Shown here in pieces: positions 7,207-14,442 of a stretch of DNA of 15,323 nucleotides. The position numbers were made by a program, and so were the translations under genes. Under the pieces are notes generated by a model. That model had not been told where the DNA came from. It ran no database searches and saw only the letters and a program-made list of their open reading frames with translations. The stretch is from UHGV virus genome UHGV-1764124; one strand, 5' to 3'. This DNA comes from a virus. The stretch's first letter is position 1. Every line of letters starts with the position of its first letter.

Positions 7207-7504
7207 GTTTAGACCTCGATACTTTAAAAATTTGAACGACGTTACCGCGCGTTTTAATAACCGCAGCCAGCATGACAGCGTTGATAATGACCTCAGATAA
7301 ATCCACAGCCATTGGCGTACGTAACCAGATTGCATAGGCGACTCGAACAGGAATACTGGCCGCAGCAACAATCAGGAAATAAGCAAGCCATCCTCCCCAC
7401 CTTCGATGTTGAGAGCCGTTACGCCGGAATGTGACAACGCGAATTGCTATGCCAGTGCAAATAACTGCATTGGTGATAAGCAAAAAAAACTCATGCGTTA
7501 CCAT
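7196..7504 (-). CDS. Small membrane protein of the lysis cassette (holin or antiholin candidate)
   Basis: 102 aa with 2-3 hydrophobic helices; strong SD GGGGAGAA 7 nt upstream; overlaps both neighbours. Confidence 0.55.
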
Positions 7505-7895
7505 CGTCTTTTCTCCCCGGAATTAACTCGCGTGGATTATCGGAACGGTGATAGAGCCATATACCAATACGCACAGCGACAATTGCTGACACGAATGCGC
7601 CTGCAGAGAAAACAATCCCTTTTTCAAAAGAGTCCTGCGTGATGGTAGGGATCAGGCTGGCTATGCCGATAAGAATTGATGCTGCTGGTTTGTAAAAGAG
7701 AAGGCCGCAAAGAAAGCTGAGCATCGACAGGAGCACCCGGCGACGGATGGGGTACTCTACTGCAGAGGTAACAAAAATTACCGCCCCAGCCAAAGCCCCT
7801 AAAGCAACCTCCGGAGGGGCACCTGCAATAACCGCAGCAAGAGAACTAAAACTAAGCAACTGATTTAATTGCTCACTTGTTACTTGAGCAGACAT
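7491..7895 (-). CDS. Holin-like membrane protein, first gene of the lysis cassette
   Basis: 134 aa with 3-4 hydrophobic helices and a charged C-terminal tail; SD AGGAGA 5 nt upstream of the ATG. Confidence 0.55.
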   Translation of the reverse strand: MSAQVTSEQLNQLLSFSSLAAVIAGAPPEVALGALAGAVIFVTSAVEYPIRRRVLLSMLSFLCGLLFYKPAASILIGIASLIPTITQDSFEKGIVFSAGAFVSAIVAVRIGIWLYHRSDNPRELIPGRKDDGNA

Positions 7896-8176
7896 ACTTT
7901 CTCCTGTTTACTATCTATAAGCCAGTCAATTATTGATGACTAAACCCGCATAGTAAACCATATATGAATCATTATTGTTCCATATCATATATCTCAATAA
8001 AAGTACTAATGATTTTACAGAACGAGCCAGCAGAGTGGGGGCAGTTGTACAGGAACCATAGACTTAATTTTGTATTTAATAATGCTATGGTGTAATAAAC
8101 CTGAACATGTATTTAAAATACGTACTGATTCATGATAGAATTCAAAGATAACTTTTCACAAACTCCGTTTTTGATA

Positions 8177-8205
8177 CCCGCAAAATATTGCGGGCTTTTT
8201 TTTAA
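8177..8205 (+). terminator. Plus-strand-oriented rho-independent terminator overlapping the tailspike stop codon (orphan)
   Basis: Stem CCCGCAA / TTGCGGG with loop AAT(A), followed by eight T on the plus strand. On the minus strand the stem is followed by A-rich sequence, so it is a poor minus-strand terminator. Confidence 0.6.
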
Positions 8206-11200
8206 CGTTCTTCCAGAGACTGAATCCGCTCTTTTATCTTATCCATTTCTCTGCGCTGCCATGCTGCCTCGATATAGAATAAGAGATCAGGTCTGACCCC
8301 CCATCTAGATCCTGCTGGCGTTATTTCAACGCGCTCAATGATGTCTTCCATTACCATCACTGGATTATCATCCTCATCAACAATGATGCTCCCGTCATTA
8401 TCAGTCAGCGGCATTTCCCTTTGGCCAGTAATGACGTCATCATATACTGCGGGATAATCGTCATAGCAAAGAAAGGCATAGCGGCATGTTGTGCTTTCTT
8501 CTTCCATGAGTCCGTGAGAAATAAGAACATCACGAAGTTGCTGCGCGATTACACCATGATGTATCCTCGCCCCTTCTTCCCCCTTTATAGCGACAGCGTT
8601 CAGCCATTTATAAGCGATATACCTGACGTCACCCCAGGCATCCAGCAATGCTTCGTCAGGAGAGACCGGCTCTGTCTTTAATGTTCCGTCACTGGTAACC
8701 ACAGGATTGGAGCCAAGATAAACTGTCGAGAACCTGTTTCCCGGACCACCAAGAGCATTTACATTATCAAGATAAGGTTTAACATCTCCGTTCTCAAAAA
8801 GATGTTCGAGTGCGTTATATACCGCGCGACGTGGAGTACTGCTTCCGGAACCATGCAACGTTATCATTGCACCATCTGCTGAAGACGTTATTTCACCGCC
8901 GCTAACGATTAATCTCTGAGCGGTAACATCATCAGACGGTACTTTCTTCGCAATAATGGCGTAATTACCCTCAAGTTTGACTTCCGCGCGAACTTGTCCT
9001 GATGTACCTGCATGGACAGTCAGTGACTGGACGGCAACATCATCTGTGAAATCAACGGGTACAGGAACCGTCCTCACGCCTGACGTCGACATAAAAGTAG
9101 GAAGCGTTCTGTTAGGAGTGGCTCCGTAGACAAAATCCCTTGAAACAAATTCTTCCTGTTTAATTTTCACCCTGAAACAATACAAATCAGCCGGGTGACC
9201 ATCGTGAACATAAGGATATTTTCTGTTGTTATCCCCTATGCTCCATGGGTTTAGAAAGTCTTCCCCACCGAAAATGTAGTACAGCCAGTTGTCTTTGATA
9301 CAAACTGAACCAACACCAACTGCAGAGTTAACTATTCCGCCCTGATAAATCTGATCAGTAACATTAACCCACTCTACATTATCCAGACTCCACTCATTGA
9401 CGTTAACTCTGGTCATAAATGTTCTTGGATAATTTCCTGCATAACGGTTATCAGGTTCTCCTCCTTCCCACTCACCAAATGCGCGCTCACTGCCAAAAAT
9501 AATCAGCTCATCGCCAACTTTGGCAAAAGGAAGGTTTGAGTGATGAACATTATTTGGGAAGCGAAGAGAATTCCATGATGTACCTAAATCAGAGCTTCTG
9601 TGCAATGAACTACCGGGTTGAGTACTTAATGTCCCCCTGGTCGTCAGATACAGAATGCCATCATAATATTTTACACATGGCTCAGATGCATTCGCCTCAT
9701 ATTCTGCAGGTATGCGTCTGCGAACAAAGCTACCAGGAGAACCGAAAGCATCAGAGAAATAGAGTATCCCAAGCTCGCGTGGACCAATATCACCATTATG
9801 GTAGCCAACAGCAAAACTGTTATCGCTAATCGTCGCAAAACTGTGAATCTCAGTAACAGGAGTGCTTCCGTCAACAAAAGAAGGAATAGTTCCAAGACTG
9901 GTTTTTCTCCATGGTGACGAGTGAAATGATGTACCAAAACTCCAGTATCTACCCTCGTTATTCTGATCCACATCCTGGGTATTTTGCGTCGTAACTGTAA
10001 AAGTATTTTTATCAATAACAGTAGTCACCGTCATATTCCCGGTAACACCTGTAACACCAGAGTTTGAGAAGTTGACAAAATCACCAGCAAATAATCCGTG
10101 ATCAGTAATGCGAATATAAGCGACTTGCTGATTTGCTGCTTTCGTTATACCACCATAAGCGCGAAGGCTGCGACTCATTGGGCGATCCCACAACTCTGCA
10201 ACCTGCAGTTTATTTCCGCTCACGGTCCGCGTCTCAATTACAGCAAAAAGGCGATTTCTGACAACCCCCATACTCATGCAGTGATAGTTAACTGTGGGAT
10301 AGTTTTCATGTAAATCTGTAAGCCATTCCGGCGTTGTCCAGGTCTTCCCGTCATCTCCTGAGCGAACCCATGCAACATGGAGGTTATTTACACCATGGCG
10401 GTCTCCAGCCATAAAAGGCGCATAGATGACATTGTCATATACAAACGTTTTATCCTGCGTCCAGGCGTTGTACCACGGTGTATCTGTAATTTTAAATAAC
10501 TCTCCCTGGATAAAATCTTCAGAAGCATAAAAAAGAGGCTGGCCCGGTATTCTCTCAAATAAAAAACGAGCATTTTTAAATCGACTGACATCCGGAAGAG
10601 TTGATACTTTAAAAGTAAGCCCTAATCCGTCAATTTTATAACCTGGAGATGAGGCTTCAAGGCACGCGCTTATTGCAGTGGAATCGTCATTTATACCATC
10701 ACCAACAGCTCCAAAATCTTTGGGGCTAATAGCATCACGCATTTTATCCTGGAACGTTCGGTACACAGCCCCAGAACCATACTGAATAAACCAACCAAAA
10801 CCACCAACAACCCCGGCGATTGCAGCATCGACATAATTACGCATTGAGCGATTATTTACAGCGTCCTGCTCAAATGATGGATCTGCAAGGTTAGAAATTT
10901 TGTTTTGCTTTGCATCGTAATATTTTGCAAGCAAAGATGGTTTCATCAATGCACGTCTGAACCACCCAAAACATTGCTGGATCAGCATCGTCAGGTAGTC
11001 AAAGGCATCTTCATGCACTTCGGGGAAAAATTTTCCCTGATTGCGAAGGTCTGTCTCCTGCACTACATCAAGCACACGATCTATCGTAATTCGCCATCCA
11101 GTAGCAAGCGGAGACGGAAGAACCACAGAACCGCCACTATAAGTGCCCGCCCCAGTTACCGTATAACCGGTATCCAGAACCAATTCTGTTACGTTTCCGT

Positions 11201-11321
11201 TCAGGTCAGACACCTGAACAACCAGGTCTGATTTTCTGAAAATTCGAAAAGTATACGGAAACGATGTCGTAACGCCGTTACCGGTGTATTCGTTGTGGTC
11301 AACTTCGGTTGAGACCGTCAT
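8202..11321 (-). CDS. Tailspike / tail fibre with T7 gp17-like N-terminal domain, Asp-box (sialidase-like) core and C-terminal S74 chaperone domain; endosialidase-like
   Basis: 1039 aa; SD GGAGA. N-terminus resembles T7 tail fibre gp17 (KISNLADPSFEQDAVNNRSMRNY vs T7 RRIVNLANAVDDRDAVPFGQLKTM, from memory). Two Asp-boxes, SGDDGKTW (321-328) and SSDLGTSW (576-583). DFGAVGDG motif. C-terminal 160 aa with S877/K882 dyad spacing and GARIHHGVIAQQLRD. The CDS is high confidence; endosialidase specificity is about 0.5. Confidence 0.85.
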   Translation of the reverse strand: MTVSTEVDHNEYTGNGVTTSFPYTFRIFRKSDLVVQVSDLNGNVTELVLDTGYTVTGAGTYSGGSVVLPSPLATGWRITIDRVLDVVQETDLRNQGKFFPEVHEDAFDYLTMLIQQCFGWFRRALMKPSLLAKYYDAKQNKISNLADPSFEQDAVNNRSMRNYVDAAIAGVVGGFGWFIQYGSGAVYRTFQDKMRDAISPKDFGAVGDGINDDSTAISACLEASSPGYKIDGLGLTFKVSTLPDVSRFKNARFLFERIPGQPLFYASEDFIQGELFKITDTPWYNAWTQDKTFVYDNVIYAPFMAGDRHGVNNLHVAWVRSGDDGKTWTTPEWLTDLHENYPTVNYHCMSMGVVRNRLFAVIETRTVSGNKLQVAELWDRPMSRSLRAYGGITKAANQQVAYIRITDHGLFAGDFVNFSNSGVTGVTGNMTVTTVIDKNTFTVTTQNTQDVDQNNEGRYWSFGTSFHSSPWRKTSLGTIPSFVDGSTPVTEIHSFATISDNSFAVGYHNGDIGPRELGILYFSDAFGSPGSFVRRRIPAEYEANASEPCVKYYDGILYLTTRGTLSTQPGSSLHRSSDLGTSWNSLRFPNNVHHSNLPFAKVGDELIIFGSERAFGEWEGGEPDNRYAGNYPRTFMTRVNVNEWSLDNVEWVNVTDQIYQGGIVNSAVGVGSVCIKDNWLYYIFGGEDFLNPWSIGDNNRKYPYVHDGHPADLYCFRVKIKQEEFVSRDFVYGATPNRTLPTFMSTSGVRTVPVPVDFTDDVAVQSLTVHAGTSGQVRAEVKLEGNYAIIAKKVPSDDVTAQRLIVSGGEITSSADGAMITLHGSGSSTPRRAVYNALEHLFENGDVKPYLDNVNALGGPGNRFSTVYLGSNPVVTSDGTLKTEPVSPDEALLDAWGDVRYIAYKWLNAVAIKGEEGARIHHGVIAQQLRDVLISHGLMEEESTTCRYAFLCYDDYPAVYDDVITGQREMPLTDNDGSIIVDEDDNPVMVMEDIIERVEITPAGSRWGVRPDLLFYIEAAWQRREMDKIKERIQSLEER

Positions 11322-11424
11322 GTTAAATCTCCAGATAGTCGCAGCACCCGTTGCGCCGCATATCTGGTTATTCTATTACCTGGAAAACCACATATGGATA
11401 GAAAGGATGTAAATACGAATAGAT

Positions 11425-11441
11425 ATTACCTTTCAGGTAAT
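11425..11441. promoter_or_regulatory. Third copy of operator-like palindrome ATTACC-tttca-GGTAAT
   Basis: Same 6-bp arms and 5-bp spacer as 505-521, with shared flanks (ATAGAT...GGTAATTT); sits in the divergent region between the tailspike start and the LexA-box gene, just before TTGCAA (11442-11447). Confidence 0.3.
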
Positions 11442-11477
11442 TTGCAAAACGTGCTGGATAGCAAACAAATTATTTGA

Positions 11478-11497
11478 TACTGTATAAATATACAGTT
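11478..11497 (+). promoter_or_regulatory. LexA (SOS) box
   Basis: TACTGTATAAATATACAGTT matches the E. coli consensus TACTGTATATATATACAGTA at 18 of 20 positions, with a perfect CTGT-N8-ACAG core; lies 20 bp upstream of ATG 11517. Confidence 0.75.
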
Positions 11498-11516
11498 ATT
11501 GCATGGAGAAGATAAG

Positions 11517-11774
11517 ATGCAGCAGTATCACTATCCACTGGAAGACGGATTTACCGAAAGGATTCACACGCCGGGAGGCGTCAGGTCACTGGTGGAGGGA
11601 TCGCACTTGATGAAATTACTCCGGGATCTCGATAAGGATGGATTTAATGTCGATGGCCCACTTGCCGAACTGACTGCACTGATTAACTACGTCACCAGCT
11701 CACAGATGTCTATGCAGGATCTGCAAACACATCTCGACTATTGTGCCGAACAATTACGAAAACAAACCCGGTAA
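11517..11774 (+). CDS. Small LexA-box-associated protein (85 aa), function unknown; candidate SOS-induced antirepressor or moron
   Basis: ATG 11517 with SD GGAGAA (11505-11510) is preferred over the track start at 11499; opposite orientation to all flanking late genes; no transmembrane segment; no motif I recognise. Confidence 0.6.
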   Translation: MQQYHYPLEDGFTERIHTPGGVRSLVEGSHLMKLLRDLDKDGFNVDGPLAELTALINYVTSSQMSMQDLQTHLDYCAEQLRKQTR

Positions 11775-11780
11775 ATTTAA

Positions 11781-11798
11781 AGGCCGCGAAAGCGGCCT
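11781..11798. terminator. GC-rich hairpin between convergent genes (probably a minus-strand terminator, possibly bidirectional)
   Basis: Stem AGGCCGC / GCGGCCT with loop GAAA; on the minus strand it is followed by TTTAAATTTA, whereas on the plus strand no U-tract follows. Confidence 0.5.
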
Positions 11799-11817
11799 GT
11801 GACATGTCACGCTCACG

Positions 11818-11958
11818 TTATGACAAGCCTATGTACCCTGCTACACCAGATAATATCATAATAACTGCAACAGCAAATTCGCCATCGTCAATGATACATT
11901 TACGGTTCATAACGCCAAGTGCAACAAGCGCAAACACAACAAGAATAAAAGCAATCAT
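11818..11958 (-). CDS. Candidate micro-ORF encoding a 46-aa two-helix membrane peptide
   Basis: ATG with SD AAGGA 6 nt upstream, 10 nt after the stop of the 824-aa gene; product MIAFILVVFALVALGVMNRKCIIDDGEFAVAVIMILSGVAGYIGLS. Not in the ORF track (below cutoff). Confidence 0.35.
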   Translation of the reverse strand: MIAFILVVFALVALGVMNRKCIIDDGEFAVAVIMILSGVAGYIGLS

Positions 11959-11967
11959 TTCTCATCC

Positions 11968-14442
11968 TTATTGCGGAGTGACATCCTGTGGTCGCCACCA
12001 GTATGTCTGGTTAAACTCTTTCTTCGAACGTTGCTCCATTTTACGCAAATAACCTGGTGAAAAATACTCCTGCATCTGGTTAAAGATCATGTGATCGAGA
12101 GCCGCCTTCAAGTACCAGAGATTCGCACCTGGCATCAGACCTTTCCCCAGCTTAACCAGATCACCACCAGTCTGCTCACTCTTCCCTTCCACAGCATTTA
12201 ACGGTATGCCCTGAGCAATCTTCACTACGTCATCAACCAGACCAGCTACCGGGCCAAGCATCGACGCCAGCGCGCCGCTTCCGTACCTAGTGTGATCTGA
12301 CAATAAAAAGTCACCGTAAAGGCCAAGACCACCACCTTTCAGTAGAGCACCAAGCCAAAATTTAGCAGCATCTTCTCCTGTCATCTCGCGAGGATTACGA
12401 CCAGACGCAAGGTCGTTAAGTTGCTGCGACAAAGCGCCAAGAATGGTCGTACTGGCAATAAACGTCGCAATATATGCCGCACGCCCACCAGCAGACGGCA
12501 TACCCATAGCGCGTGACCAGTGACGCATAACCACCGAGATAGGGAACGATTTAAACAGGAAAACACTTCTCGTTAATTCACCTTTCCATGTTCCACGCTG
12601 AATACCAGAACCGGTTATCAGTTGCTCACGTGCTCCCGGTGTAATAACAGCCATATCAACTTCTTCAGTTACGGCACCGAGCAGTTTACGCATTGCCTCA
12701 AATTTCACGCGTTCAGGCTCACCAAGATGTTTAACTGCTGAATCAGGGATACGCATAATGCTTTCCGGTGTCAGCATCGTATTATTACCGTTCCCCCAGT
12801 CCTCCTGTTTCGCCAGCTTCCATACGCTCCAGTCTGTGTCAGTAATCCCTTTGCTTTTCAGGATACGAAAATCAGAGTCATCGAGGCTACGAAGGTCTGG
12901 TGTACGTGACACTACTTCTCCCAGGCTTCCCATCATGGTTACGCCATAGGCGCGCTTGTGCGCATCTGACCATGCTGTAAGCCCACTGGCACGCATTACC
13001 GCCGTTGCCGCCCAACGAGACACTGACGGCCCCATATTATCCATCGCCCAGCGGTTAACGCTGCCAAGTAGAGATTCCATCGCCAGACCAGCGCGGCGCG
13101 CCCGCGCAAGTTCTGTACGGTTCGTTGGGTCCATAGCTTCAAGCTGGTTGCGGAATAACTGGTTCATTGGAAGGTTGGTAACCTTCGCAGACAGATACAT
13201 GGTTCCAAGATCAGAGAACGATGACAGCAACGCGGATCCGAGTCTGCTGGCAACCAGCCAGTTGCGGATATTGTCAGACCATCGCGCGATGTGCGGATTC
13301 GCTACAGGCTGTGTCTTTCCGGAAATAAAGTTGTACAGATTCTCTGTGTTGTTCGCCAGCCGCTCGACTTTACCGGTTTTACTCGGGTTAGCTGTTGCCG
13401 TTTCTGCCTTCACCTGATCAAGAAGAGAGCGGAAAACATGATCGGGGTTTGGGCCATATGTTTCCACCAGTGCAATATCTTTACTGATACCTTCCAGGTG
13501 ACCGACCATGATTTCCCATAGAGAGCGATCGCCATAAAGTTGCTGATATTGCAGATAGGAATCTGCATCTTTGAAATGTATCTGTCGTGATGCATTACCA
13601 CGGTTAGCACGTGCGCCGGAAATTCGCATTCCGGTATCAGTAAGCTTATTCAGCCCACCAGTAGCGATCGTGTTATAAGCCTCTCCAAGAAATGAAGACA
13701 ACTCGGCATCGTTCATCAGTTGTCCATCGGCTCGGATATAATATTTGCGATCCAGCTTACCTATAACATCGCTAACCCACTTATCCTTTGATACTGCCCC
13801 AACCTTTTCCATAGAATGATGTTGAGGGATCCCCCAGTTTTCGAGATAGCCAATGTCCCCACCAGCATCATTAAACCGGCGGCGCAGCAGCTCTGTAACT
13901 TCTCTCCACGCCTTAGCACCGTTTCTTGCTTTAGCATTGCCAGTATTTTGCCCCCGCATTTCATATACCAGGTCACGTACGCCCGCTTCATCTTCAAACA
14001 GACCAAAAAAGCGAGGATCAACTGCTTCGAATGCCTCCTGCAATTGACTCAATGCATAATCACGGGTGGCTTTTGTTCTGGATTCAACAGAGAGGAAATT
14101 AGATTTACCGTCTGCATTAAAAGCTATAGTACGGTTAAGAGCGCCAAGTTTCCCATCAGCCCCTTGATAGCTATTGATAAATTTATCCAATCTCTGACGC
14201 GCGGCTATAGTGAGAGCCACACGACGTTTCTTTAATGCCGCTTCTCGCTGTAATTCTTCAGATGCCAATTGTGCTGCTCGATATAGCCGCTCTGATTCGG
14301 AAAGTTGTCTCCACGACATCGGGTCATCACGAGCAATGGAGCGCATATTTCGATAAATGCGGTCTTCAATGTTCTGTATTTCTCGCGCCGTTAACGTGCG
14401 CTGCGCCGCCTGCTGGACCGCTTGTATACATTCCTGTCTCAT
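11968..14442 (-). CDS. Large virion protein (824 aa), candidate internal core / ejection protein
   Basis: Long ORF with SD GAGAGG; helical Q/R/E-rich N-terminal part and Gly-rich C-terminal segment (KGGGLGLYGDFLL); positioned just upstream of the tailspike in the late operon. Family is unassigned. Confidence 0.75.
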   Translation of the reverse strand: MRQECIQAVQQAAQRTLTAREIQNIEDRIYRNMRSIARDDPMSWRQLSESERLYRAAQLASEELQREAALKKRRVALTIAARQRLDKFINSYQGADGKLGALNRTIAFNADGKSNFLSVESRTKATRDYALSQLQEAFEAVDPRFFGLFEDEAGVRDLVYEMRGQNTGNAKARNGAKAWREVTELLRRRFNDAGGDIGYLENWGIPQHHSMEKVGAVSKDKWVSDVIGKLDRKYYIRADGQLMNDAELSSFLGEAYNTIATGGLNKLTDTGMRISGARANRGNASRQIHFKDADSYLQYQQLYGDRSLWEIMVGHLEGISKDIALVETYGPNPDHVFRSLLDQVKAETATANPSKTGKVERLANNTENLYNFISGKTQPVANPHIARWSDNIRNWLVASRLGSALLSSFSDLGTMYLSAKVTNLPMNQLFRNQLEAMDPTNRTELARARRAGLAMESLLGSVNRWAMDNMGPSVSRWAATAVMRASGLTAWSDAHKRAYGVTMMGSLGEVVSRTPDLRSLDDSDFRILKSKGITDTDWSVWKLAKQEDWGNGNNTMLTPESIMRIPDSAVKHLGEPERVKFEAMRKLLGAVTEEVDMAVITPGAREQLITGSGIQRGTWKGELTRSVFLFKSFPISVVMRHWSRAMGMPSAGGRAAYIATFIASTTILGALSQQLNDLASGRNPREMTGEDAAKFWLGALLKGGGLGLYGDFLLSDHTRYGSGALASMLGPVAGLVDDVVKIAQGIPLNAVEGKSEQTGGDLVKLGKGLMPGANLWYLKAALDHMIFNQMQEYFSPGYLRKMEQRSKKEFNQTYWWRPQDVTPQ

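What the first reader, a model, noticed from the sequence alone, without database searches (positions are those of the whole stretch)
8202..11321. Tailspike predicted to be a sialidase-like capsule depolymerase (endosialidase architecture)
The protein combines four elements: a T7 gp17-like N-terminal virion-attachment domain, a DFGAVGDG motif, two Asp-box motifs (SGDDGKTW, SSDLGTSW) of the kind found in sialidase beta-propellers, and a C-terminal S74-type chaperone domain. This is the domain order reported for K1-specific phage endosialidases such as K1F endoNF. It predicts host range restricted to polysialic acid (K1-type) capsulated strains, which is medically relevant. I assigned the architecture from motifs by eye, not from an alignment.
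Basis: partly seen in the sequence, partly recalled or inferred. Interest (0 to 1): 0.65.

Follow-up and report, generated by a model that had tools for sequence, protein, structure and literature searches.

The report
K1 capsule-cutting phage tailspike, known
The gene is an intact phage tailspike that cuts the polysialic acid (K1) capsule of E. coli, carried by an epsilon15/phiV10-like temperate phage; nearly identical copies are already published and annotated, so it is correct but ordinary.

Summary
The ORF at 8202-11321 is real: 1039 aa, on the minus strand. It is an endosialidase tailspike. Pfam finds all four endosialidase domains plus the Peptidase_S74 chaperone (beta-propeller E=1e-233). 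Residues 205-876 match the K1F endoNF crystal structures (E=0). The five K1F catalytic residues are conserved, as is the Ser/Lys self-cleavage site.

Window 8231-10623 is 99.4% identical in DNA to the endosialidase gene of prophage CUS-3, whose activity is recorded as assayed. The first ~197 aa are instead the tail-attachment domain of epsilon15/phiV10-type phages (Uetakevirus). This domain resembles T7 gp17 only in predicted fold, not in sequence.

The same protein (99.7%) is the tail protein of the published temperate phage vB_EcoP_ZX5. That phage plaques on an O87:H52:K1 strain, and its paper already names the same three-part architecture. The gene (99.8-99.9% among the 25 hits listed) is in 72 of 5426 complete E. 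coli genomes, and in each of those 25 RefSeq calls it an endosialidase domain protein.

Activity of this exact protein on polysialic acid has not been tested.

The parts
8202..11321 (-). Complete tailspike gene, 1039 codons plus stop (TAA at 8202-8204); GGAG ribosome-binding site 9 nt upstream of the ATG
   Evidence: same CDS boundaries as annotated in phage vB_EcoP_ZX5 and E. coli APEC O1
10731..11321 (-). aa 1-197: tail-attachment (adaptor) domain of the epsilon15/phiV10 (Uetakevirus) tailspike family. Predicted beta-sandwich (aa 9-82) followed by helices.
   Evidence: 83% nt identity to phiV10 over 10887-11774 and 96% to Phi05_1387 B over 10734-11774. PHROG tail families E down to 1e-143. 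Homologues in Escherichia, Klebsiella, Proteus, Serratia and Morganella. PDB Carin-1 tail fibre E=1e-35. Model and Foldseek results.
10695..10718 (-). DFGAVGDG motif (aa 202-209). It sits at the junction where the shared adaptor ends and the receptor-binding module begins.
   Evidence: relatives with the same adaptor continue with DFGAxGDG..DDT and then different modules, either pectate-lyase-type (PF12708) or endosialidase-type
10509..10709 (-). aa 205-271: endosialidase N-terminal extension domain (PF12218)
   Evidence: E=5.9e-32, 109.6 bits against cut-off 26.3
9159..10508 (-). aa 272-721: catalytic six-bladed beta-propeller (PF12217). Contains both Asp-boxes (10338-10361, 9573-9596) and the residues equivalent to the K1F catalytic residues: H309 (10395-10397), R515 (9777-9779), E547 (9681-9683), R562 (9636-9638), R613 (9483-9485).
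   Evidence: residue list from PMC12632334
9927..10175 (-). aa 383-465: beta-barrel domain inserted in the propeller (PF12195)
   Evidence: E=7.9e-46, 154.4 bits against cut-off 35
8694..9158 (-). aa 722-876: stalk (tailspike) domain of endosialidases (PF12219)
   Evidence: E=4.3e-77; aligned to the end of the endoNF crystal chains
8205..8693 (-). aa 877-1039: C-terminal intramolecular chaperone domain (Peptidase_S74), predicted to be released by self-cleavage before S877 (8691-8693), with K882 (8676-8678)
   Evidence: PF13884; PDB 3gw6 endoNF chaperone domain E=2.4e-93 over aa 757-1038; K1F maturation site from the GenBank mat_peptide aligned
8231..10623 (-). Block of 2393 nt that is 99.4% identical to the siaK1 endosialidase gene of the P22-like prophage CUS-3 (aa ~233-1030). 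The flanks on both sides do not match CUS-3.
   Evidence: protein differences listed
8177..8194 (.). G+C-rich hairpin just past the stop codon (CCCGCAAAATATTGCGGG), flanked by an A-run/T-run; a possible terminator
   Evidence: consensus scan only, the T-run is on the + strand, function not tested

Best explanation
The gene encodes the single tailspike of an epsilon15/phiV10-like temperate podovirus (genus Uetakevirus). It is an endo-alpha-2,8-sialidase (endosialidase, the endoNF family) that degrades the polysialic acid K1 capsule of E. coli.

Inferred mechanism, by homology to K1F endoNF:
1. The protein folds as a homotrimer with the help of its C-terminal chaperone domain (aa 877-1039).
2. 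That domain then cuts itself off before Ser877, using the Ser877/Lys882 pair.
3. The N-terminal ~197 aa fix the mature trimer to the tail hub.
4. On the cell, the beta-barrel and stalk bind polysialic acid. The beta-propeller active site (H309, R515, E547, R562, R613) cleaves the chain internally.
5. The virion thereby tunnels through the capsule to the outer membrane. Infection should therefore depend on a K1-type capsule.

The gene is a mosaic. A Uetakevirus adaptor is joined, at the conserved DFGAxGDG junction, to a catalytic and chaperone block almost identical to that of the unrelated P22-like prophage CUS-3.

Shown here: the domain content, the conserved residues, the mosaic boundaries, and the near-identity to known genes. 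Inferred: trimerisation, self-cleavage, enzyme activity and K1 dependence.
For: - Pfam: End_N_terminal, End_beta_propel (E=1.2e-233), End_beta_barrel, End_tail_spike and Peptidase_S74, all above their cut-offs and in endoNF order.
- PDB: endoNF 1v0e/3gvl E=0 over aa 205-876; phi92 endosialidase 4hiz E=7e-271; endoNF chaperone domain 3gw6 E=2e-93.
- The catalytic residues and the cleavage-site Ser/Lys are conserved. The K1F maturation site is annotated in GenBank.
- aa 272-721 is 99.8% identical to CUS-3 siaK1. The CUS-3 record gives endo-alpha-sialidase activity with evidence code IDA, PMID 16689790.
- The protein is 99.7% identical to the tail protein of phage vB_EcoP_ZX5, a viable Uetakevirus isolated on an O87:H52:K1 strain.
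- The gene is present in 72 complete E. coli genomes. The 25 listed (99.8-99.9% nt identity) include O1:K1:H7 strains, APEC O18 and a cerebrospinal-fluid isolate, and RefSeq names the product an endosialidase catalytic beta-propeller domain protein.
- Context is a Uetakevirus late/lysogeny region: integrase, DUF2514 spanin-like gene, GH19 endolysin, two holins, then the tailspike and an 824-aa virion protein.
Against: - No experiment exists on this exact protein. The ZX5 paper assigns the domains by similarity only.
- One residue that I recall as part of the stalk polysialic-acid binding site in endoNF (Q853) is Met here and in CUS-3.
- aa 198-232 are only moderately similar to CUS-3 and K1F.
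- K1 dependence of infection was not shown for ZX5 beyond its isolation host.
Confidence: 0.93

Rival explanations
1. The protein is an endosialidase-fold tailspike whose preferred substrate is not plain K1 polysialic acid. Candidates are the alternating alpha-2,8/2,9 K92 polymer, or O-acetylated K1 capsule.
For: It is 59% identical to the phi92 endosialidase, whose host is a K92 strain. Its closest relative comes from CUS-3, which carries the neuO gene next to its tailspike. By my own knowledge, neuO is a capsule O-acetyltransferase. One recalled stalk binding residue differs from endoNF (Q853 to Met).
Against: The propeller is 99.8% identical to that of CUS-3, from the K1 strain RS218, with assayed endosialidase activity in its record. 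Known hosts and lysogens are K1 strains. All active-site residues match K1F.
Confidence: 0.04
2. The protein binds polysialic acid but no longer cuts it, so it acts as an adhesin only. Alternatively, it is an unused relic of a decaying prophage.
For: Single point mutants of endoNF were crystallised as folded proteins, for example the chain of 3gvj, which has Ala at the position of R647. No assay exists for this protein.
Against: The ORF is intact, at 1039 codons. All five catalytic residues and the chaperone cleavage pair are conserved. The gene is kept at 99.8-99.9% identity in every one of the 25 genome hits listed, and is present in 72 genomes. It is the only tailspike of a viable, plaque-forming phage.
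Confidence: 0.02

Closest known systems
Tail protein ORF7 (QTH80017.1) of Escherichia phage vB_EcoP_ZX5 (MW722083, Uetakevirus; Pathogens 2022, PMC9782041), and RefSeq WP_000218907.1 of E. coli APEC O1
   Same: Same gene: 99.7% aa identity over all 1039 residues, and 99.7% nt identity across window 7400-11774 including both flanks. The neighbours are the same (holins, endolysin, DUF2514 gene, integrase). The paper already describes an N-terminal T7-like tail fibre part, a central endosialidase and a C-terminal chaperone.
   Different: A few substitutions only. The window lacks the anti-repressor (Bro-N) segment that ZX5, APEC O1 and phiV10 carry beyond the small divergent gene upstream of the tailspike.
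CUS-3 endosialidase tailspike siaK1 (ABQ88383.1; P22-like prophage of E. coli K1 RS218)
   Same: aa 233-1030 is nearly identical: 99.4% nt over 2393 nt, with the propeller at 449 of 450 aa. It has the same 7-aa insertion relative to endoNF, the same catalytic residues and the same chaperone domain.
   Different: The N-terminus of CUS-3 shows no meaningful similarity to aa 1-192 here; from my own knowledge it is P22 gp9-type. The last ~14 aa differ. CUS-3 has neuO directly downstream, and this gene does not.
K1F endoNF (gp17; PDB 1v0e, 3gvl, 3gw6), the structural and mechanistic reference for endosialidases
   Same: Same domain order from the N-terminal extension to the chaperone. Identity is 62.8% over aa 193-1039 and 70% in the propeller. 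The catalytic residues, both Asp-boxes and the cleavage site are conserved.
   Different: The adaptor domain has no detectable sequence similarity to that of K1F, only a shared predicted fold. There is a 7-aa insertion (FVDGSTP, aa 482-488). The carrier phage is temperate and epsilon15-like rather than lytic and T7-like.
phiV10 and epsilon15 tailspikes (Uetakevirus, O-antigen specific)
   Same: Same N-terminal adaptor (83% nt to phiV10 over the first ~145 codons) and the same position in the genome.
   Different: Their receptor-binding parts target O-antigen. phiV10 also carries the O-acetyltransferase gene oac next to its tailspike gene, which is absent here.

Membership tests
Phage endosialidase (endo-N-acetylneuraminidase, endoNF family) | Catalytic six-bladed beta-propeller recognised by PF12217 above its curated cut-off | tested here: met
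   775 bits against cut-off 24, full model 1-367, aa 272-721; endoNF crystal chains E=0
Phage endosialidase (endo-N-acetylneuraminidase, endoNF family) | Active-site residues equivalent to K1F H350, R549, E581, R596, R647 | tested here: met
   H309, R515, E547, R562, R613; residue list from PMC12632334
Phage endosialidase (endo-N-acetylneuraminidase, endoNF family) | Accessory domains in endoNF order: N-terminal extension, beta-barrel inserted in the propeller, stalk domain | tested here: met
   PF12218 aa 205-271, PF12195 aa 383-465, PF12219 aa 722-876, all above cut-off
Phage endosialidase (endo-N-acetylneuraminidase, endoNF family) | C-terminal intramolecular chaperone domain with the Ser/Lys self-cleavage site | tested here: met
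   PF13884 41.4 bits against cut-off 22; 3gw6 E=2e-93; S877 and K882 align to K1F S911 and K916; the K1F maturation site is annotated at 910|911
Phage endosialidase (endo-N-acetylneuraminidase, endoNF family) | [quoted passage not shown] | not testable with these tools
   Only indirect: the CUS-3 protein, 99.8% identical in the propeller, carries an IDA activity annotation
T7 gp17 N-terminal tail-fibre domain (Pfam PF03906) | Sequence match to PF03906 above its curated cut-off | tested here: not met
   15.8 bits against cut-off 25.2, E=0.011; not reported at E<=1 in the whole-protein scan; BLASTP and hhalign against the K1F gp17 N-terminus not significant; none of the 120 listed homologues carries PF03906
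T7 gp17 N-terminal tail-fibre domain (Pfam PF03906) | Same fold as solved gp17 N-terminal domains bound to the tail | tested here: inconclusive
   Foldseek hits to 7boz and 7ey9 (T7 gp17 N-terminus) and to fibre N-termini of PhiM1, LME-1, Kp7 and Kp9, with E 1e-4 to 4e-6 and probability 1.0. However, TM is only 0.3-0.5, and the model is confident only for the beta-sandwich at aa 9-82 (mean pLDDT 66).
Uetakevirus (epsilon15/phiV10) tailspike adaptor domain | N-terminal ~195 aa shared with tailspikes of epsilon15-like phages and prophages, followed by a variable receptor-binding module | tested here: met
   83% nt to phiV10 and 96% to Phi05_1387 B. 182 homologues, 54-100% identical among the 120 listed, continuing into different modules. 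Genomic context matches phiV10.

The most novel reading that the evidence does not exclude
The catalytic and chaperone block moved recently and directly between two unrelated temperate podoviruses that live in the same K1 strains: the P22-like CUS-3 and this epsilon15-like phage. On one side, the conserved DFGAxGDG junction would serve as the crossover point. Only the tailspike module moved. The receptor-modifying gene that usually travels beside it did not (neuO in CUS-3, oac in phiV10). Lysogens of this phage would then lack capsule-level protection against superinfection unless CUS-3 is also present.

Evidence that does not exclude this reading:
- 99.4% nt identity across 2393 nt, set in otherwise unrelated genomes.
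- Genomes carrying both genes: EC69, APEC O18 and F11.
- No acetyltransferase gene beside the tailspike.
Probability: 0.4. Interest if true: 0.3.

Novelty: already known. Interest (0 to 1): 0.12.

Why it matters
K1-capsulated E. coli cause neonatal meningitis, sepsis and avian colibacillosis. Endosialidase tailspikes determine which phages can infect these strains, and they are also used as reagents and candidate therapeutics. This copy adds nothing new in kind. It is the tailspike of a described temperate phage lineage, and its enzyme part is essentially the CUS-3 enzyme. Its modest value is as a clean example of a receptor-binding module shared between unrelated temperate phages of the same host. 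It also marks this window as a phage of K1 strains.

Tried and rejected
1. T7 gp17-like N-terminus by sequence. The Pfam scan of aa 1-209 gave PF03906 below threshold. BLASTP against the K1F gp17 N-terminus gave nothing. A 30-sequence profile against the K1F N-terminus by hhalign gave E=0.45. Sequence membership is rejected. Only the fold-level resemblance from the model remains.
2. The only hit is a 21-residue sub-threshold match of PF12708 at the DFGAVGDG motif. Rejected.
3. Generic bacterial sialidase (BNR_2). The hit is sub-threshold at 17.3 bits against 31.4. The protein belongs to the phage endosialidase families instead.
4. NCBIfam gave no meaningful hit.
5. I looked for remnants of neuO (CUS-3) or oac (phiV10) downstream of the gene. 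blastn of window 7400-12000 against both loci found none in 7921-8230.
6. I did not test whether every one of the 72 carrier genomes has the K1 biosynthesis genes. The hit tables list at most 60 records, so a full cross-check was not possible.
7. One preprint on the epsilon15 tailspike structure that appeared in a search could not be opened.
Full report
**Observation.** The interval 8202-11321 is exactly one open reading frame with its stop codon. It lies on the minus strand and encodes 1039 aa. A GGAG sits 9 nt upstream of the ATG.

- DFGAVGDG at aa 202-209.
- SGDDGKTW at aa 321-328.
- SSDLGTSW at aa 576-583.

The last two are the only Asp-box-like matches in the protein. In the three-protein alignment they fall at the two Asp-boxes of K1F endoNF.

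**Identity of the protein.** A Pfam scan finds five domains, all far above their curated cut-offs:
- End_N_terminal, aa 205-271.
- End_beta_propel, aa 272-721, E=1.2e-233.
- End_beta_barrel, aa 383-465, inserted in the propeller.
- End_tail_spike, aa 722-876.
- Peptidase_S74, aa 877-937.

A sequence search of the PDB gives these matches:
- K1F endoNF (1v0e, 3gvl and its point mutants), E=0 across aa 205-876.
- The phi92 endosialidase 4hiz, E=7e-271.
- The endoNF chaperone domain 3gw6, E=2e-93.

The only trace of a pectate-lyase fold is a 21-residue sub-threshold hit at the DFGAVGDG motif.

**Functional residues.** I aligned the protein with K1F gp17 and CUS-3 siaK1, both taken from their GenBank records. 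A recent deep mutational scan of the K1F tailspike lists H350, R549, E581, R596 and R647 as the key catalytic residues (PMC12632334). Here these are H309, R515, E547, R562 and R613.

Further residues that the scan found critical (Q330, D331, H527, S528, K585, N699) are also conserved.

The K1F record annotates maturation between residues 910 and 911. The aligned site here is T876|S877, and the Lys five residues later (K882) is conserved. The assignment of Ser911/Lys916 as the self-cleavage pair rests on my knowledge of the endoNF chaperone literature. The alignment itself is a tool result.

**Mosaic structure.** At the DNA level:
- Window 8231-10623 is 99.4% identical over 2393 nt to siaK1 of the P22-like prophage CUS-3.
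- Window 10887-11774 is 83% identical to phiV10.
- Window 10734-11774 is 96% identical to another Uetakevirus contig, Phi05_1387 B.

At the protein level, identity to CUS-3 varies along the chain:
- The propeller is 449/450 identical.
- The stalk is 98% identical.
- The chaperone domain is 93% identical, with the differences concentrated in the last 14 residues.
- aa 1-192 share nothing meaningful with CUS-3.

Relatives of the N-terminal domain all run together up to about aa 197 (...FQDKMRD). They then continue with a DFGAxGDG..DDT start and either pectate-lyase-type or endosialidase-type modules. That motif therefore marks the module junction.

The gene is slightly poorer in G+C (0.445-0.459) than the rest of the window (0.482).

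**The N-terminal domain.** By sequence this fails:
- PF03906 scores 15.8 bits against a cut-off of 25.2.
- BLASTP and hhalign against the K1F gp17 N-terminus are not significant.

The domain belongs to the epsilon15/phiV10 tailspike adaptor family. The evidence is PHROG tail families with E down to 1e-143, 182 homologues across Enterobacterales, and a solved relative in the marine podovirus Carin-1 tail fibre with E=1e-35.

I built an AlphaFold model from a 30-sequence alignment. It is confident only for a beta-sandwich at aa 9-82; mean pLDDT is 66. Foldseek against the PDB returned:
- The Carin-1 fibre N-terminus first (E=1e-11).
- Then the tail-bound N-terminal domains of fibres from PhiM1, LME-1, T7 (7boz, 7ey9, 8dsp) and Klebsiella phages Kp7/Kp9, with E of 4e-6 to 1e-3 and probability 1.0, but TM of only 0.3-0.5.

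I read this as a shared fold and probable distant relationship. 'T7 gp17-like' is acceptable as a structural description, not as family membership.

**Context.** The window is a Uetakevirus (epsilon15/phiV10-like) genome segment. In window order it contains:
- An HTH repressor-like gene, a YqaJ exonuclease, RecT and an MT-A70 methyltransferase.
- An integrase (4530-5780, minus strand).
- A DUF2514 spanin-like gene, a GH19 endolysin and two holins.
- The tailspike.
- An 824-aa virion protein.

The integrase lies next to the lysis genes, as in the phage genome of ZX5. In the APEC O1 prophage, by contrast, the lysis genes abut the chromosomal gene yfgI. The window therefore has the phage (attP) arrangement.

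**What is already known.**
- The protein is 99.7% identical to the tail protein of vB_EcoP_ZX5. This is a temperate Uetakevirus isolated from human faeces on E. coli YO1, serotype O87:H52:K1.
- Its paper states that ORF7 has an N-terminal T7-like tail fibre part, a central endosialidase and a C-terminal endosialidase chaperone.
- The gene occurs over its full length in 72 of 5426 complete E. coli genomes. The 25 hits listed are 99.8-99.9% identical and include O1:K1:H7 strains, APEC O1, APEC O18 and a cerebrospinal-fluid isolate. In all 25, RefSeq names the product 'endosialidase catalytic beta-propeller domain-containing protein'.
- The CUS-3 record carries an experimental (IDA) endosialidase annotation for a protein that is 99.8% identical in the propeller.

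**Mechanism.** By homology to endoNF:
1. The protein trimerises with the help of its C-terminal chaperone domain.
2. The chaperone domain is removed by self-cleavage before S877.
3. The adaptor docks the trimer on the tail.
4. The beta-barrel and stalk hold polysialic acid while the propeller cleaves alpha-2,8 linkages internally.
5. This clears a path through the K1 capsule.

These steps are inferred. The domains, residues and near-identity to characterised enzymes are shown. I put the probability that this is an active K1-capsule endosialidase tailspike at about 0.93.

The rivals are a shifted substrate preference (K92 or O-acetylated capsule, about 0.04) and a binding-only or relic protein (about 0.02). 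The conserved active site, the K1 hosts and the strong conservation of the gene argue against both.

**Verdict.** The finding is already known in the literature and in standard annotation, so interest is low.

The only mildly interesting point is the near-identical enzyme block shared with CUS-3. Some strains carry both prophages (EC69, APEC O18 and F11). Here the block has no adjacent receptor-modifying gene, whereas CUS-3 has neuO and phiV10 has oac.

Noticed in passing
window 8231-10623; E. coli genomes NZ_CM128670.1 (EC69), NZ_CP006830.1 (APEC O18), NZ_CP184143.1 (F11): Several complete K1-type genomes carry two endosialidase tailspike genes at different loci. One is this Uetakevirus type and one is the CUS-3 (P22-like) type. 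22 of the 25 listed carriers show a second matching place. The CUS-3 type is in 181 of 5426 genomes and this type in 72. Co-residence would allow the near-identical block to be exchanged.
   Followed up: partly
window 7896-8201: The 306-nt A+T-rich spacer between the tailspike stop and the holin gene matches neither phiV10 nor CUS-3. phiV10 has the O-acetyltransferase gene oac at this position, and CUS-3 has neuO next to its tailspike. Here there is no receptor-modifying gene.
   Followed up: partly
window 11775-11816: Compared with ZX5, APEC O1 and phiV10, the segment with the Bro-N anti-repressor and neighbouring small genes is missing. That segment lies between the small divergent gene upstream of the tailspike and the small membrane-protein gene before the 824-aa virion protein. 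Similarity to those genomes breaks at 11774 and resumes at 11780. A hairpin (AGGCCGCTTTCGCGGCCT, 11781-11798) sits at the joint.
   Followed up: partly
window 4530-6580: The integrase (4530-5780, minus) and the DUF2514 lysis gene (6098-6580, minus) are adjacent, with 317 nt between them, as in the free phage ZX5. In the APEC O1 prophage the lysis genes border the chromosomal gene yfgI. The window therefore shows the unintegrated (attP) arrangement.
   Followed up: partly
window 1053-2984: The exonuclease (YqaJ domain, 299 aa) and RecT (340 aa) are separate genes here and in ZX5. The phiV10 record annotates a single fused RecE-RecT protein of 1761 nt.
   Followed up: no
window 11968-14442: The 824-aa protein has no Pfam match at E<=0.001. 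It corresponds to phiV10 p20, annotated only as a virion structural protein.
   Followed up: no
protein P0009 (Kluyvera cryocrescens): A 277-aa Kluyvera protein has the same adaptor (80% identity) followed by a PF12218 endosialidase N-terminal-extension hit, but then diverges. This hints at related modules outside E. coli.
   Followed up: no
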